The position numbers and the translations under genes are program-made. A model generated the notes under the pieces. It was not told the DNA's origin. It was given only the letters and a program-made list of their open reading frames with translations, and did no database searches. Below are positions 1-4,616 of a DNA stretch of 4,616 nucleotides, piece by piece. The stretch is from a virus (lineage: Duplodnaviria > Heunggongvirae > Uroviricota > Caudoviricetes): IMG/VR virus record IMGVR_UViG_2671180680_000003; one strand, written 5' to 3'. The first letter of the stretch is position 1. Each line of letters begins with the position of its first letter.

Positions 1-10
1 CAATGTGCAT

Positions 11-45
11 AAAAAAATCCGGAAACAAGTGAGCGTTTCCGGATT
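11..45 (-). terminator. Putative Rho-independent terminator downstream of the portal gene (minus-strand specific)
   Basis: Plus 16-26 (aatccggaaac) and 35-45 (gtttccggatt) form a perfect 11-bp inverted repeat around an 8-nt loop (27-34). On the minus-strand transcript the stem is followed by a U-run (complement of the A-run at 11-17). On the plus strand the stem is followed by cttac, so it would terminate only minus-strand transcripts. It lies about 30 nt past the portal stop (78-80). Confidence 0.5.
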
Positions 46-77
46 CTTACACAGCCACTGGATCGGTCAACTGATCC

Positions 78-1325
78 TTAACTGATCGGCATTACACCAC
101 CGGGACGCGGATTCATATCTTCCAGGTCGCGGCAGTCATTGGAAGAGTAAATTCCCCAGTTGATCCCGGTGGCGTAGGCTTCAAAACGGGACTTCATATC
201 CCCGCGCAGTAACGCCCCGGCGTTAAATTTGGCGTAATAAACGCCCTGCTTACTTTTTCGTACCAGTCCGGTGTTGATCCGCTGTTCGATGCGGGTCAGA
301 TACGGCACCAGTGAATAGTTGATAAATCCCAGCCCCAGCTCTTCGATATTGTTGAAGGTGGCGCGATCGGTGTTCTGCACCATGTGCAACGGCACCCGGA
401 ACAGACGACAGATTTCTTCCAGCTGAAACTTGCGGGTTTCCAGGAACTGACTGTCCTCGGCGTTCAGCGCCATCGACTTCCAGTCCAGCCCCATTTCCAG
501 AATCATCGGGCGGTGAGCATTGCCAAGCCCCGTGTGACACTCCTCAAAATCTTTCTTCAGACGCTCGTAAGCATCCGGCGTGAGCTTTTGTTCCGTACGC
601 AACACACCGGATGTCACCGCACCATTACTAAACAACCTGGCACCGTGCTCCTCGGTTGCCGCTGCCAGTGAAATGGCCTCACGCGCATACGCAATGGGAT
701 TCAGCCCGACAAGTCCATCCAGCGTCAGGGTGCGCACATGCCAGATTTCATTCTGGGTCAACACATCCACGGAACCATCCGGAAACGTCACCTGATAAAC
801 CGGCTGCCACTGGCTGTTCAGCTTCGGTTCCACACAGCCCGGATCTATCGGAAGAAGCTCCACCACTTCTCCCAGTGCCTTTACCTTGTAGGCGTAAAAA
901 TTCCCCCGTAGACACAGGCAGACAATAACCAGCTCCCAGAATTCCTGCGGTGTCATGTAGCCATTAGGTTTTGCCGAAACCAACTTATGCAGTCGTTCAT
1001 CCACCGCCCGTGTTTTCAGGGTACCGCTGATTTTGTAGAGACTGCAGGGCAGCATACCAACAGACTCTGCCAGCACCCTGACGCAAGAATAGACCGCCGT
1101 CAGGCGCATGGCCCGCTGGCTACTGATCCGCTTTCCGGTATAGGTGTCGTATGACAGCCCGATAGCATCAGCAGTTCTGCTGGCGTGGTCACCGGCACAT
1201 CGCTTTTTCGTTGAAATAATCCCGAAAAGAACACTATTTACCTCCGCCGACAGACTGCCGTGTACGGTCGAGATATCGCGCCACCAGCCACGACCAGAAC
1301 AGGCACAGCGCCCCGGCAACAACAA
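78..1325 (-). CDS. Phage portal protein, HK97-family-like; 5' boundary uncertain
   Basis: Longest ORF is 415 aa with TAA stop at 78-80. It carries the [22 protein letters not shown] motif that I recall as typical of the N-terminal region of HK97-family portals, and it sits directly downstream of the large terminase. The track start at 1325 is a TTG (followed by two more TTG codons) and the first 31 codons overlap the small membrane ORF in another frame. The first in-frame ATG is at 1109..1107 (M73), which would give 343 aa. I found no ATG/GTG/TTG between them. Confidence 0.85.
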
Positions 1326-1416
1326 AACCCGCCGGGGGATAAATCAGCCAGGCACCATACGCCAGCAAAAGCGCACCCAGCACGCCCACCAGAGGCGCGA
1401 GAATCAGCATGATCAT
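1234..1416 (-). CDS. Hypothetical small membrane protein (60 aa, two predicted transmembrane helices)
   Basis: ATG at 1416..1414 is preceded by a GAGG Shine-Dalgarno with 5-nt spacing (minus strand ...CTGAGGTAATTATG), 11 nt after the large-terminase stop. The translation [60 protein letters not shown] has two hydrophobic stretches separated by PPAG and a short charged tail. No family recognised; could also be a chance ORF in a hydrophobic-coding frame. Confidence 0.45.
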
Positions 1417-1427
1417 AATTACCTCAG

Positions 1428-3161
1428 TTAAAGCGAGCGGATCCCGTAGGACTCAATGTGGTCAGACAGCGTGTCTTCTTTCTCGTACAGCATGGCTCTG
1501 CCAACCGCCATAATCAGCGCAACTGCACCATCGATTTTGTTTTCCGCCTGCTCTTTGACGGGTTTCACCACATCATCGTTACCCGGCATGTTTTTGCCGA
1601 CCACGTTGCCGATACACCAGGTCATGATGGGATTGCCGTCATGATGAAAACGTCCCGATTCAATCGCTGCTTCCAGCTCTTTCATCGGATCGGACATATT
1701 GGTGAAGTTCTGGACGATAGTGACGGGATTCAGGTCTTCATCAGCAAGGTCATGTGACAACCCGGTCGCCCCGAAGGGGTCGATGGGTGACTCACTGACC
1801 GGGCTGATTTTGTTCGCCGCTTTGGCCTCCTCGAGGATGTAGCGATAATCCACCTCCGCACCATCGGTAACGGTCAGAACGCCCATTTCCACCCATTTCT
1901 GAAAGCGTTCGGCTGTCCGTCGATCTTCATTTTTCTCGACGCTGTACACCGTGTCATACGGTACCCAGAAACGCGGGGCCACACTGTAGTAATGCGTTTT
2001 ACCGTCAATCTCGCGGGTATAAAGTCGCGCCATGCTGTTCATATCCAGCTTACGCGCCAGGTCAAAGGCCAGAATGCACGGCTGCCCCTCGAACTGCTCA
2101 AGGGTCAGTGATTTATCCTCGCAGCTCTGCCAGCTCACCAAGTTGAAATACGCCGAACGCGCCGACACCCAGATATTGAGGTGTTTTGTTTTAAAGACGT
2201 TTGCCAGACGGGCGTTATTTTTCGCACGCTGCTGCTGACTTAACAAAAATTCGCGATAAACCGACACGCCAATATTTGGATTGGCTTTTTCCAGCACCTG
2301 CGGGCCGGTCCAGTCGTCACCTTCATCAACGGTATAGATGATCCCGAACAGTTCATCGTTAGGCACCGAGCCGTTGAGCATCTCGATGACTTCCCGCCGC
2401 TTGTCGTAGCACGGCCCCTCAATGTTGTACCCGGCGGTGGTGATGGCCCACATCAGTGGCTGACGTCGCGCCCCCATCCCGGTAAGCATTGTGGTATAAA
2501 GCGCATCGGTGGCATGCTCGTGATATTCATCAACCACGGCACAGTGGGGTGATGAACCATCACCTGGGTTGCCGATCAGCGGTTCAAACCGCGCGCCATC
2601 CTCCGGACGGTTCATGTTTGAGGCGTTAACCTCAATCCCGAACGCTTCCGTCAGCATGGGTGTGCGTTTACACATCAGTCGCGCCGGGCGAAAGACTTCC
2701 CACGCCTGTTTCTCTGTCGTGGCACCGGAATACACTTCCGCGCCAAACTCGTTATCACAGGCAAAACAATACAGGGCAACACCGGCAGAGATTGCTGATT
2801 TGCCGTTCTTACGGGGGATTTCGGTGTACACCTCCCGGAAGCGGCGCAACCGGGTGCCTTTATTGACCCAGCCAAACGCACAGCAGATCACAAATAGCTG
2901 CCACGGCTCCAGCGTGATGGGCATCCGTTTGAATGCCCACTCCCCCTTGGTGTGCGGCAACAGCTGAATAAATTTCGCGGCCCGTTCAGCCAGGTCCTTG
3001 TCGAAGCGGTAACGAAACGACTTACTTTTTTCCGCCATCAGGTCATCAAGATGGCGCTGGCAGGCCTGAATCACAAACTGGCAGGCAACAATCTTTCCGC
3101 GCACGACATCCCGGGCATACTGATTTGCAGCATTTACGTTGGGGTAAGATTTCCGGCTCAT
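1428..3161 (-). CDS. Phage terminase large subunit (ATPase plus nuclease)
   Basis: 577-aa ORF with ATG at 3161..3159 and TAA at 1430..1428. Has a P-loop-like segment ([14 protein letters not shown], residues about 114-127) and a Walker-B-like acidic patch ([10 protein letters not shown]). Size and position (after the small terminase, before the portal) match lambdoid/HK97-type large terminases. Its ATG overlaps the upstream stop as ATGA. Confidence 0.93.
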
Positions 3162-3554: not shown

Positions 3555-3881
3555 NNNNNNNNNNNNNNNNNNNNNNNNNNNNNNNNNNNNNNNNNNNNNN
3601 NNNNNNNNNNNNNNNNNNNNNNNNNNNNNNNNNNNNNNNNNNNNNNNNNNNNNNNNNNNNNNNNNNNNNNNNNNNNNNNNNNNNNNNNNNNNNNNNNNNN
3701 NNNNNNNNNNNNNNNNNNNNNNNNNNNNNNNNNNNNNNNNNNNNNNNNNNNNNNNNNNNNNNNNNNNNNNNNNNNNNNNNNNNNNNNNNNNNNNNNNNNN
3801 NNNNNNNNNNNNNNNNNNNNNNNNNNNNNNNNNNNNNNNNNNNNNNNNNNNNNNNNNNNNNNNNNNNNNNNNNNNNNNNNN
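3555..3881. other. Run of 327 N (assembly gap or masked sequence)
   Basis: Directly visible in the sequence. It breaks both the HNH ORF and the small-terminase ORF. All ORFs in the track that cross it are bridged by X and their across-gap continuity is not real evidence. Confidence 1.
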
Positions 3882-4239: not shown

Positions 4240-4616
4240 CTACTTAATGCACTGAGTGCGGATATACTCCTGTGCCCCTTCCAGTTGCATCTGCATCGTC
4301 ATCAGCCGCTCTCTGAGGGTGAAATAATCCCGTTCAGCGGTGTCTGCCTGTCGGGGGCTGGTTGCATTATCCACGCCGGAGGCGGTGGTGGCTTCACGCA
4401 CTGACTGACAGACTGCTTTGATGTGCAACCGACGACGACCAGCGGCAACATCAGCGCGCAGAGTTTCATTTTCAGCTTTCGCATCAGCTAACTCCTTCGT
4501 GTATTTAGCATCGAGTGCATTAACATCACGCTGTCTCTGCTGCATGTCAGTAATGGTTGCGTTCGCCAGCTTCAGTTCTCTTGCGTTTTTGTCGCGCTGC
4601 TCTTTGTAGGTAATGG
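4240..4616 (-). CDS. Rz: Spanin inner-membrane subunit Rz (i-spanin), 5'-truncated by the window edge
   Basis: The track ORF starts at an internal Met (4545) but the frame stays open to the window end. My hand translation of 4546..4614 gives ...[24 protein letters not shown], which continues without a break into [26 protein letters not shown]...[25 protein letters not shown]...[11 protein letters not shown]. This is near-identical to my recollection of lambda Rz. TAG stop at 4240-4242. The N-terminal TM segment would lie beyond position 4616. Confidence 0.92.
4302..4484 (-). CDS. Rz1: Spanin outer-membrane lipoprotein subunit Rz1 (o-spanin), embedded in Rz in another frame
   Basis: 60-aa [63 protein letters not shown] with a signal peptide plus lipobox (VVGC) and a proline-rich mature region, closely matching lambda Rz1 from memory. 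It has its own strong Shine-Dalgarno (minus strand AAGGAGTTAGCTGATG) and lies wholly inside Rz in a different frame. Confidence 0.9.

What the first reader, a model, noticed from the sequence alone, without database searches (positions are those of the whole stretch)
1234..1416. Unassigned two-helix membrane miniprotein between large terminase and portal, overlapping the portal start
A 60-aa ORF with a good Shine-Dalgarno and ATG starts 11 nt after the large-terminase stop and encodes two hydrophobic helices with a short basic tail. HK97 itself goes from terminase straight to portal as far as I recall, so a membrane protein here is not part of the canonical packaging set. It could be a moron (for example a superinfection-exclusion or small toxin-like membrane protein), or only a chance ORF. 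Its last 31 codons overlap the longest portal frame.
Basis: partly seen in the sequence, partly recalled or inferred. Interest (0 to 1): 0.55.

Follow-up and report, generated by a model that had tools for sequence, protein, structure and literature searches.

The report
YmfR: portal-coupled phage membrane miniprotein
The 60-codon ORF is a real, already named prophage gene (the YmfR family) for a tiny two-helix membrane protein that always sits immediately ahead of the portal gene, and its function has never been determined.

Summary
The ORF at 1234-1416 (minus strand) exists as described. It is neither unassigned nor a chance ORF. It is YmfR (e14 gene b1150; phiP27 L37, ST64B Sb3, SfII_03; PHROG 502 "membrane protein"), and the locus occurs in 1604 of 5426 complete E. 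coli genomes.

Across divergent relatives the frame is under purifying selection (mean pN 0.19, pS 0.65; no such signal in shifted frames).

The 31-codon overlap with the portal is an artefact. In relatives the portal starts at the GTG that shares one base with the ymfR stop (TAGTG, window 1234), and the portal's GGAGG ribosome-binding site lies inside ymfR's last codons. In this window the portal carries a 1-nt deletion near codon 21 and is cut by IS4 at position 95, so this is a decayed prophage.

A profile search shows a much wider family with the core motif [17 protein letters not shown]. In 44 of 45 distant viral loci it sits directly upstream of a PF04860 portal, usually with a 1-4 nt stop/start overlap. 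Several published phage genomes leave it unannotated.

It moves with the portal when terL is exchanged, and it shows no moron features. Its function is unknown. The best guess is a late inner-membrane hairpin belonging to the portal/head module.

The parts
1428..3161 (-). Large terminase gene terL (577 aa); its stop TAA is at 1430-1428.
   Evidence: Pfam TerL_ATPase (8e-26) and TerL_nuclease (4e-33). It is 98-100% identical to terL of SfII, SfV and L022-L026.
1421..1425 (-). Shine-Dalgarno GAGGT of ymfR, 5 nt upstream of the ATG, inside the 11-nt terL-ymfR spacer (1417-1427).
   Evidence: Read directly from the sequence. It is identical in the close relatives.
1234..1416 (-). ymfR coding sequence: 60 codons plus the stop TAG (1236-1234).
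   Evidence: ORF list. PHROG 502 hit at E 2.8e-28. 166 homologous clusters, nearly all 60 aa. RefSeq names it 'ymfR: protein YmfR'. dN/dS is 0.04-0.33 in this frame only.
1342..1413 (-). Transmembrane helix 1 (residues 2-25), with conserved small residues P8, G11, G14, G21 and W23.
   Evidence: Hydropathy, AF2 helix 2-25, invariant columns.
1327..1341 (-). Tight turn Y26-P-P-A-G30, the centre of the family motif [17 protein letters not shown]. It is inferred to face the periplasm.
   Evidence: The best-conserved segment in both the close and the distant alignments. Topology is inferred from the positive-inside rule.
1270..1326 (-). Transmembrane helix 2 (residues 31-49), with conserved G35, C38, L39, W41 and S42.
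1237..1269 (-). Short basic cytoplasmic tail (D50-K60). Its sequence varies except for the final GG[KED].
   Evidence: Alignment A2. The terminal Gly codons encode the portal ribosome-binding site.
1241..1245 (-). Portal Shine-Dalgarno GGAGG, embedded in ymfR codons 58-59, 6 nt before the portal GTG.
   Evidence: Sequence. Purine-rich GGAGG/GGGGG/GGTGA is conserved before the portal start in the relatives.
1232..1234 (-). Ancestral portal start codon GTG. It shares G1234 with the ymfR stop (TAGTG).
   Evidence: Annotated portal starts in phiP27, SfII and K-12 beeE lie at the homologous base. 76 of 84 distinct junctions in related loci have a 1- or 4-nt overlap.
1100..1234 (-). Portal fragment A. 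Codons 1-21 (1234 to about 1172) are homologous to the portal N-terminus ([12 protein letters not shown]...). The frame then runs out of register to a stop at 1100.
   Evidence: tblastn matches portal aa 1-21 in this frame. The alignment shows a 1-nt gap at column 269.
1172..1173 (-). Site of the 1-nt deletion that frameshifts the portal (window GAACT-GCTGATG against GAGCTGGCGGATG in relatives).
   Evidence: The same split is present in five independent contigs, L022-L026, so it is a real mutation and not a read error.
96..1171 (-). Portal fragment B (portal aa about 22-380), in the frame of the mechanical ORF 78-1325.
   Evidence: Pfam Phage_portal at 3e-107. tblastn matches aa 5-380.
1..95 (.). 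End of an IS4 copy. It cuts off the last ~33 codons of the portal and everything downstream of it.
   Evidence: Megablast finds IS4 copies in 2591 E. coli genomes, up to 32 places per genome. The exact IS4 end ...GGCATTA was fixed by comparison with an IS4 insertion in mlc.

Best explanation
The ORF is ymfR, a bona fide conserved phage gene that encodes a 60-residue inner-membrane helical hairpin. Both ends are inferred to be cytoplasmic, with the tight YPPAG turn at the periplasmic face. The gene belongs to the late packaging/head operon. It is translated from its own Shine-Dalgarno 11 nt after terL. Its stop shares one base with the portal start, and its last Gly codons form the portal's ribosome-binding site, so ribosomes finishing YmfR are positioned to start the portal (translational coupling). 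The hairpin gene and the portal gene are inherited as one unit. The most likely function, by inference only, is an accessory role in lytic growth tied to the portal/head module. One candidate is placing or nucleating portal and procapsid initiation at the inner membrane, which is the logic of T4 gp40. It is unlikely to be a lysogenic-conversion moron. In this window the gene is intact but sits in a dead prophage, so here it is probably a leftover. Shown: the gene is real, it belongs to the family, it has a hairpin architecture, it keeps its position and junction, and it is linked to the portal. Inferred: topology, coupling in vivo, late expression and function.
For: Identity: PHROG 502 at E 2.8e-28; RefSeq name ymfR in 1604 of 5426 E. 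coli genomes; K-12 b1150 has the same layout; annotated as a membrane protein in phiP27, ST64B and SfII. Coding: 166 clusters, nearly all exactly 60 aa. On a 42-codon core from 11 divergent loci, mean pN is 0.19 against pS 0.65. 40 of 42 third positions vary against 16 of 42 second positions, and the signal disappears in the two shifted frames. Structure: hydropathy, charge distribution and AF2 two-helix model. Basic N-terminal extensions in distant members and basic C-tails support N-in/C-in. Coupling: TAGTG, TGATG or TAATG junctions in all close loci. 76 of 84 distinct junctions overlap by 1 or 4 nt. Linkage to the portal: in L010, L015, L018 and L020 terL is only 35-37% identical to the window's terL, yet the portal is 72-82% identical and ymfR is present. 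SfV has a 98% identical terL but a 28% identical portal, preceded by an equally divergent hairpin ORF. Depth: the A2 and A3 profiles are the same family (hhalign 99.7%). There are 401 representatives at 50% identity and at least 1677 clusters. Downstream lies a PF04860 portal in 44 of 45 distant loci, and upstream a TerL in 32 of 34. Azospirillum phage Cd gp30/gp31 has the same layout. No moron hallmarks. In K-12, ymfR has log2FC 4.52 together with the other e14 genes, in a treatment for which the authors also report SOS induction (PMC10012262). Deleting ymfR has no host phenotype (PMC9145139). For T4, a membrane-bound portal initiator dependent on gp40 is described in PMC9958956.
Against: No experiment addresses the function. 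The best-conserved part is the membrane-embedded, periplasm-proximal turn. The cytoplasmic parts that could touch a cytoplasmic portal are short and variable, which argues against a simple portal-binding tether. HK97, RcapNL, NatCom_43819, fEg-Aba01, Mcat12 and Bacillus phage Gamma have PF04860 portals and no such ORF, so it is not generally required for this portal type. Tight linkage could merely reflect the overlapping junction, which makes the pair hard to separate by recombination. The promoter scan is consensus-based and cannot exclude a weak internal promoter. The related loci were mostly retrieved with the hairpin itself as the query, so the 44/45 figure shows where the gene sits, not how many portals have one.
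Confidence: 0.55

Rival explanations
1. Moron or superinfection-exclusion protein: a small inner-membrane protein expressed from the prophage that protects the lysogen, for example by blocking DNA entry of other phages (like HK97 gp15, T4 Imm or P22 SieA) or by acting as a small toxin.
For: It is a small, very hydrophobic membrane protein, as many exclusion proteins are. PHROGs files family 502 under 'moron, auxiliary metabolic gene and host takeover'. The gene stays intact in decayed prophages where the portal is dead: this window, L022-L026 and e14 of K-12.
Against: There is no promoter-like site on its strand within 500 nt upstream, no terminator-like site on that strand between it and the portal, and GC like the neighbours. 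Its position is fixed and its junction with the portal overlaps, even between phages whose portals are about 30% identical, whereas morons are sporadic. There is no PADLOC hit. In K-12 its transcript rises with the rest of e14. Deleting ymfR has no reported host phenotype. A 183-nt gene survives decay by chance far more easily than a 1.2-kb portal.
Confidence: 0.15
2. Lysis-related membrane permeabiliser: a holin, pinholin or antiholin-like two-TM protein that tunes membrane potential or lysis timing late in infection.
For: Size, two TM helices, inferred N-in/C-in topology, a basic C-tail and small-residue (Gly/Ala/Ser) stripes on both helices resemble class II holins. Foldseek lists two 'Holin' entries among its non-significant matches.
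Against: No holin family hit in Pfam or PHROGs, and no Foldseek match at E <= 1e-3. The gene lies in the packaging/head operon, whereas the window's lysis genes Rz and Rz1 lie about 2.8 kb upstream. A dual-start motif is not conserved (MIM, MFL and MIL variants). Coupling to the portal across many phage lineages is not explained.
Confidence: 0.1
3. Cis-acting leader: the ORF exists mainly to deliver ribosomes to the portal start and so set portal translation. On this reading the peptide itself is incidental.
For: The portal SD lies inside the ORF, and the stop/start overlap is the most constant feature of the locus. The C-terminal GG[KED] residues are explained by the SD.
Against: Strong amino-acid-level purifying selection acts on the two helices and the turn, far from the junction. 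The motif [17 protein letters not shown] persists after synonymous sites are saturated and across at least 1677 clusters. A leader needs neither 60 codons nor two TM helices.
Confidence: 0.06
4. Virion or ejection component: a hydrophobic peptide carried at the portal vertex that inserts into the recipient's inner membrane during DNA delivery.
For: Adjacency and coupling to the portal gene. Its hydrophobicity would suit membrane insertion.
Against: Nothing here indicates packaging of the protein. A 2-TM hairpin with no soluble domain would be inserted co-translationally into the producer's membrane. No virion proteomics were found in the literature searched.
Confidence: 0.05
5. Chance ORF, or a shadow of the portal reading frame.
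For: 60-codon ORFs are common in this window (46 ORFs of at least 30 aa). The ORF overlaps the longest portal-frame ORF.
Against: Length and frame are conserved in 166 clusters. dN/dS is well below 1 only in this frame. The overlapping portal frame is the artefact of a 1-nt deletion.
Confidence: 0.01

Closest known systems
YmfR of E. coli K-12 cryptic prophage e14 (b1150, 'IPR020297 domain-containing protein YmfR'), equivalent to phiP27 L37, ST64B Sb3, SfII_03 and PHROG 502 'membrane protein'
   Same: Same length (60 aa) and same position: 11 nt after terL, with the stop sharing one base with the portal start. Close family members are 88-97% identical. The window's protein is 100% identical to the product in contigs L022-L026.
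   Different: Nothing of substance. This copy sits next to a frameshifted, IS4-truncated portal. e14's copy sits next to a differently truncated portal (beeE) and a chimeric terL (ymfN). The family has a name but no known function.
T4 gp40 (membrane-associated chaperone needed to assemble the gp20 portal initiator on the inner membrane; PMC9958956)
   Same: A small phage protein linking portal or prohead initiation to the inner membrane. This is the only established precedent for a membrane step in portal assembly, and it is the functional model proposed here.
   Different: No sequence comparison with gp40 was made here. To my recollection gene 40 is not adjacent to or coupled with gene 20, and T4's portal belongs to a different family from PF04860. 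The analogy is purely one of logic and is untested.
HK97 gp15 / T4 Imm / P22 SieA (inner-membrane superinfection-exclusion proteins; from general knowledge)
   Same: Small phage-encoded inner-membrane proteins.
   Different: Those are morons or early genes with their own expression signals, placed variably and expressed in the lysogen or early in infection. ymfR has none of these signals, has a fixed position and is coupled to the portal.
Class II holins / pinholin S21 (two TM helices, N-in/C-in; from general knowledge)
   Same: About 60-70 aa, two TM helices with small-residue faces and a basic C-terminus.
   Different: Not in the lysis cassette, no holin family hit and no conserved dual start.
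Lambda gpW (head-tail joining protein encoded between terminase A and portal B)
   Same: The same slot in the gene order. Some automated phage annotations label this ORF 'head-tail joining protein W' (vB_EcoM-689R6, As1).
   Different: From general knowledge gpW is a soluble protein. YmfR is a membrane hairpin and has no Pfam gpW hit. The label appears to be a positional or transfer error.
Small 2-TM ORFs upstream of portals in other phages: Azospirillum phage Cd gp30, Mycobacterium phage Optimus gp8, Pseudomonas D3 Orf3 / PMG1_0003, and the Vibrio K269 67-aa ORF
   Same: 50-67 aa, two hydrophobic helices, sited between terL (or the upstream gene) and a PF04860 portal, overlapping or abutting the portal start.
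   Different: Cd gp30 is a clear family member (local HMM E 4e-19). Optimus gp8 is borderline (hhalign 63%) and K269 is weak (E 0.004). D3/PMG1 Orf3 shows no detectable similarity and may be an analogue only.

Membership tests
YmfR family / PHROG 502 | Significant match to the family profile over the full length | tested here: met
   phrog_502 at E 2.8e-28, residues 1-55 on profile positions 3-57 of 58. phmmer hits to 166 clusters. RefSeq names the orthologous locus ymfR.
YmfR family / PHROG 502 | About 60 aa, two hydrophobic helices joined by the Y-P-P-A-G turn; conserved G11, G14, G21, W23, G30, G35 | tested here: met
   Alignments A2 and A3, hydropathy, AF2 helices 2-25 and 27-57.
YmfR family / PHROG 502 | Position between terL and a PF04860 portal, with the stop overlapping the portal start | tested here: met
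   Window sequence; relatives.
YmfR family / PHROG 502 | Membrane insertion and topology of the protein | not testable with these tools
   Only predicted, from the positive-inside rule and AF2. Needs fusion reporters or fractionation.
Moron (lysogenic-conversion gene) | Own promoter and terminator flanking the gene | tested here: not met
   The nearest minus-strand promoter-like site is more than 500 nt upstream, at chance frequency (3 found, 1.8 expected). The only minus-strand terminator-like site lies about 320 nt inside the portal gene, also at chance level. The gene is separated by 11 nt from terL and overlaps the portal by 1 nt.
Moron (lysogenic-conversion gene) | Base composition deviating from flanking genes | tested here: not met
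   GC is 0.57-0.59 over the ORF against 0.52-0.60 in the flanks.
Moron (lysogenic-conversion gene) | Sporadic presence among otherwise related phages | tested here: not met
   Present at the same site in all 100 close loci where it was sought and in 44 of 45 distant loci next to a portal. It changes together with the portal.
Moron (lysogenic-conversion gene) | Expression in the uninduced lysogen | tested here: inconclusive
   Only indirect evidence: K-12 ymfR has log2FC 4.52 together with the other e14 genes in a treatment for which the authors also report SOS induction (PMC10012262). No baseline protein data.
Known anti-phage defence proteins (PADLOC) | Match to a defence-system profile | tested here: not met
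   0 families at E <= 1.
Holin (class II / pinholin) | Match to a holin family, and location in the lysis cassette next to endolysin or spanins | tested here: not met
   No holin hit in Pfam or PHROGs. Rz and Rz1 are at 4240-4545, separated from ymfR by HNH, terS and terL.
Holin (class II / pinholin) | Lethal hole formation on induction | not testable with these tools
   Needs expression experiments.
Lambda gpW head-tail joining protein | Sequence match to the gpW family; soluble fold | tested here: not met
   No gpW family among the Pfam hits at E <= 1. The protein is a hydrophobic hairpin.
T4 gp40-like portal assembly chaperone | Sequence or structural similarity to gp40; requirement for portal ring or prohead initiation | not tested
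   No gp40 sequence was compared. The requirement for assembly needs genetics. The analogy rests on PMC9958956 and on gene linkage only.

The most novel reading that the evidence does not exclude
YmfR-like hairpins are a widespread accessory of HK97-family (PF04860) portal modules, frequently missed by annotation and always coupled to the portal. They occur in phages of Alpha-, Beta- and Gammaproteobacteria and possibly Actinobacteria. On this reading they would tie portal synthesis or procapsid initiation to the inner membrane, a membrane step in head assembly so far established only for T4 (gp20-gp40). The hairpin and its cognate portal would co-evolve as a pair.
Probability: 0.2. Interest if true: 0.65.

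Novelty: already known. Interest (0 to 1): 0.3.

Why it matters
For this window it matters little. The ORF is an already named hypothetical gene sitting in a decayed prophage, and the apparent overlap with the portal is a pseudogene artefact.

More generally, this is a very common phage gene. The locus is in about 30% of complete E. coli genomes, and the family has at least 1677 protein clusters in metagenomes. It has no Pfam family and no known function. Several published phage genomes leave it unannotated, and some label it gpW.

Its strict coupling to the portal gene makes a concrete hypothesis testable with one knockout in a phage such as SfII or PY54. A role in portal or procapsid assembly would add a membrane step to HK97-type head assembly. 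A defence or lysis role would instead explain why such a gene persists in cryptic prophages such as e14.

Tried and rejected
- Pfam, NCBIfam and PADLOC scans of the 60-aa protein gave nothing significant. The best were TctB at 0.025 and an ABC permease at 0.24, both generic TM matches.
- Foldseek of the AF2 model against viral structures gave no match at E <= 1e-3. A two-helix hairpin is too simple to be informative.
- Rfam gave no RNA family anywhere in the window.
- Literature: 'ymfR' occurs in 14 papers. The six opened either list it in e14 deletions, show its co-induction with e14, use it as a neutral integration site, or turned out to be a catalogue-number false hit for 'b1150'. Searches for ST64B/integral membrane protein, for a small membrane protein between terminase and portal, and for e14/b1150 found nothing on function.
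- The 'putative rho-independent terminator' that the SfII record places inside the 5' end of ymfR was not reproduced by the terminator scan of the window. I treat it as a chance hairpin inside coding sequence.
- My first reading that SfV lacks the gene was wrong. A local HMM found an unannotated, divergent hairpin ORF there.
- A portal-profile scan of viral contigs, meant to measure without bias how many portals have the hairpin, failed because alignment A4 is too divergent. A sample of 13 cultured phages retrieved by portal similarity was used instead.
- D3/PMG1 Orf3 could not be shown to be homologous. Optimus gp8 is only borderline.
Full report
**1. What is in the window**

All genes read on the minus strand. 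Their order is:
- Rz (4240-4545, cut by the window end) with Rz1 embedded (4302-4484)
- an HNH endonuclease (start 4197)
- a run of N at 3555-3881
- the small terminase (P27/Terminase_4 type, ends 3158)
- the large terminase (1428-3161)
- the 60-codon ORF (1234-1416)
- a PF04860 portal

This is the right-end/left-end layout of the phiP27, ST64B and SfII group of HK97-like temperate phages.

**2. The observation**

- The ATG is at 1416, 11 nt after the terL TAA, with GAGG 5 nt upstream.
- It has 60 codons and the stop TAG lies at 1236-1234.
- The product is very hydrophobic (GRAVY 1.16), with two hydrophobic stretches (1-25 and 31-49) separated by YPPAG. All five charged residues lie after position 47.
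- AlphaFold2 on a 20-sequence alignment gives two helices, 2-25 and 27-57, at pLDDT 74.7.
- HK97 does lack such a gene: its terL stop overlaps the portal start.

**3. It is a real gene**

An ORF of this size is unremarkable by itself, since the window contains 46 ORFs of at least 30 aa. Conservation settles the matter.
- A protein search found 166 clusters at 90% identity, almost all exactly 60 aa, in Escherichia, Shigella, Salmonella, Citrobacter, Klebsiella, Enterobacter, Yersinia, Hafnia and Buttiauxella.
- I compared a gap-free 42-codon core from 11 divergent loci. Mean pN is 0.19 and pS 0.65, with pairwise dN/dS of 0.04-0.33.
- 40 of 42 third codon positions vary, against 16 of 42 second positions.
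- Reading the same DNA in the two shifted frames gives pN >= pS.

**4. It is not unassigned**

- RefSeq calls the orthologous gene 'ymfR: protein YmfR'. The locus is found in 1604 of 5426 complete E. coli genomes.
- In K-12 it is b1150 of cryptic prophage e14, between the terL chimera ymfN and the portal remnant beeE.
- It is phiP27 L37, ST64B Sb3 and SfII_03, annotated as a putative integral membrane protein.
- It matches PHROG 502 'membrane protein' at E 2.8e-28.
- It has no Pfam, NCBIfam or PADLOC family.

**5. The overlap with the portal is an artefact**

In phiP27, SfII and K-12 the portal is annotated to start at the G that ends the ymfR stop codon. ST64B annotates a start 3 nt further upstream, but its portal aligns from the same GTG.

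In the window that codon is GTG 1234-1232 within TAGTG, preceded by GGAGG (1245-1241) inside ymfR codons 58-59.

Alignment with ST64B, phiP27 and SfII shows a single-base deletion in the window about 60 nt into the portal, near position 1172.
- Portal residues 1-21 are therefore in the frame of the 44-aa ORF 1100-1234.
- The rest is in another frame, whose open stretch happens to run upstream to a TTG at 1325.

The same split occurs in five independent contigs whose terL and YmfR are 100% identical to the window's (L022-L026). It is therefore a real mutation and not a read error.

The portal is also truncated at about residue 380 by the end of an IS4 element that occupies window 1-95. The window thus shows a decayed prophage in which ymfR happens to be intact.

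**6. Anatomy of the locus in relatives**

In every close locus the junction is TAGTG, TGATG or TAATG, and the C-terminal GG[KED] codons supply the portal's purine-rich ribosome-binding site. Of 84 distinct junctions in all fetched loci, 58 overlap by 1 nt, 18 by 4 nt (most of these also have an ATG at -1), 3 are separated by 3-13 nt and 5 could not be scored.

The hairpin gene follows the portal and not the terminase.
- In Klebsiella michiganensis and three Serratia loci, terL is only 35-37% identical to the window's, while the portal is 72-82% identical and ymfR is present.
- SfV shows the converse. Its terL is 98% identical, but its portal is only 28% identical.
- The SfV portal is preceded by an unannotated, equally divergent hairpin ORF (MKSLIADVIGLAGFGLLTCGVYLQFGMAPALILSGALLLVGALAMARRGTRAA).
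- That ORF overlaps a well-placed GTG at 2440, which aligns with residue 1 of the SfII portal.
- The exchange point lies in the last codons of terL.

**7. The family is much wider than the annotation suggests**

- A profile search of 1.84 billion representative proteins found 401 representatives at E <= 1e-3, mostly 45-80 aa, that keep the core [17 protein letters not shown]. Many carry a basic N-terminal extension.
- The close and distant alignments are the same family by hhalign (99.7%).
- A second database search gave at least 1677 clusters. Almost all are 'hypothetical' and none has a Pfam domain. The few that carry a source name are from Sphingomonadales, Reyranellaceae and uncultured Caudovirales.
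- I fetched 80 viral contigs using the distant members. In 44 of 45 non-redundant cases the next gene is a PF04860 portal. In 32 of 34 the preceding gene is a TerL.
- Those portals are only about 28-35% identical to one another and the terminases about 19%.

I also examined thirteen cultured phages retrieved by portal similarity alone.
- The gene is present but unannotated in the supposed intergenic gaps of Klebsiella phage 48ST307 (E 7e-16), Yersinia PY54 (3e-19) and Burkholderia vB_E253 (7e-7).
- It is weakly recognisable in Vibrio K269 and in Mycobacterium phage Optimus gp8, which is annotated 'membrane protein' and overlaps the portal by 4 nt (hhalign 63%).
- An analogous 2-TM ORF with no detectable similarity occupies the site in D3/PMG1.
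- Nothing comparable exists in NatCom_43819, RcapNL, fEg-Aba01, Mcat12, Bacillus phage Gamma, Javan95 or CJIE4-1.

HK97, fetched separately, also has nothing comparable. Azospirillum phage Cd, found with a distant family member as the query, has a clear member annotated 'membrane protein' (gp30), with a 1-nt overlap with portal gp31.

**8. How it most likely works**

Shown:
- a conserved 2-helix hydrophobic protein
- its own ribosome-binding site
- a stop/start overlap with the portal
- co-inheritance with the portal
- no nearby promoter-like or terminator-like site on its strand, and no compositional anomaly

Literature:
- In K-12, ymfR rises with log2FC 4.52 together with ymfJ, ymfL, ymfM, ymfQ and xisE, in a treatment for which the authors also report SOS induction (PMC10012262).
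- Deleting ymfR has no host phenotype, and the locus is used as a neutral integration site (PMC9145139).

Inferred:
- N-in/C-in topology, from basic residues at both ends
- translation coupled to the portal
- late expression

On this basis I commit to the following. YmfR is a late-operon inner-membrane hairpin that belongs functionally to the portal/head module, and it is not a moron. The specific mechanism I consider most likely is that it links portal synthesis or procapsid initiation to the inner membrane, as gp40 does for the T4 portal gp20 (PMC9958956). That mechanism is only a guess, at roughly 0.2-0.25.

Two facts weigh against it.
- The most conserved part of the protein is the membrane-embedded, periplasm-proximal turn, not a cytoplasmic surface.
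- Several phages with PF04860 portals do without the gene.

**9. Rivals**

- A moron or superinfection-exclusion protein, about 0.15.
- A holin-like permeabiliser, about 0.1.
- A cis-acting translational leader, about 0.06.
- A virion or ejection component, about 0.05.
- A chance ORF, refuted.

The retention of an intact ymfR in two different decayed prophages (this one and e14) is the best point for a host-beneficial role. However, a 183-nt target survives decay easily by chance.

**10. Verdict**

It is partly wrong: the gene is not unassigned, is not moron-like, and the portal overlap is artefactual.

The gene family is already known and named, and its function is unknown. Interest in this particular finding is low to moderate. 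The generalisation that came out of the work may be worth an experiment: a widespread hairpin gene strictly coupled to the portal, often left unannotated.

Noticed in passing
window 1100-1234 and 96-1325 (minus strand); deletion at about 1172: The portal gene is a pseudogene. A 1-nt deletion near codon 21-22 splits it into two frames. The same lesion is present in five independent IMG/VR contigs (L022-L026).
   Followed up: yes
window 1-95: The right end of an IS4 element (...CTTAACTGATCGGCATTA) abuts portal codon ~380, so the rest of the portal and whatever lay beyond it is missing from the window. No complete E. coli genome matches the ymfR region above 96%, which suggests a non-E. coli host such as Shigella. 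The host was not identified.
   Followed up: partly
window 3555-3881: A run of 327 N masks the end of the HNH endonuclease gene, the region where phiP27 has its cos site, and the start of the small terminase gene. The mechanical ORFs that cross it are meaningless.
   Followed up: no
window 4240-4545 and 4302-4484 (minus strand): An Rz/Rz1 spanin pair, with Rz1 embedded in the +1 frame of Rz (Pfam Phage_lysis 1e-43, Rz1 7e-19). Rz is cut by the window end. The lysis cassette therefore lies upstream of HNH-terS-terL, well away from ymfR.
   Followed up: partly
L103 (SfV NC_003444) 2289-2450; L187 (Klebsiella phage 48ST307) about 932-1120; L191 (Yersinia PY54) about 714-920; L189 (Burkholderia vB_E253) about 810-1097: Published phage genomes leave a YmfR-family hairpin ORF unannotated in the terL-portal 'gap'. 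In SfV the annotated portal start (2392) is probably 48 nt too far upstream. GTG 2440, preceded by AAGGGGGA, aligns with residue 1 of the SfII portal.
   Followed up: partly
hits H7, H8, H17, H19 (vB_EcoM-689R6, Salmonella phage As1, vB_EcoM-720R4, vB_EcoM-606R7): Automated annotations list a 'head-tail joining protein W' among the three features at this locus, apparently for the hairpin ORF. The protein is a membrane hairpin with no gpW match, so the label looks like an annotation error.
   Followed up: partly
L003 (SfII NC_021857) 2370-2419: The SfII record annotates a 'putative rho-independent terminator' inside the first 60 nt of ymfR. The homologous window sequence was not picked up by the terminator scan. 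If it were real it would reduce portal transcription, which seems unlikely.
   Followed up: partly
L005 (MAG 'Bacillota bacterium' JAEWTL010000102), L019 ('Martelella alba' SZPQ01000064), H18 ('Enterococcus phage Efm 3-10', 1764 bp): Enterobacterial-type terL-ymfR-portal sequences sit in records labelled as Firmicutes or Alphaproteobacteria. L005 and H18 are 95-99% identical to the SfII group. L019 is more divergent (YmfR 48%, portal 78% identical). These are probably contamination, binning or labelling errors.
   Followed up: no
L198 (Campylobacter phage CJIE4-1) 317-751: In this phage a MazF toxin gene, not a hairpin ORF, occupies the slot between terL and the HK97-family portal.
   Followed up: no
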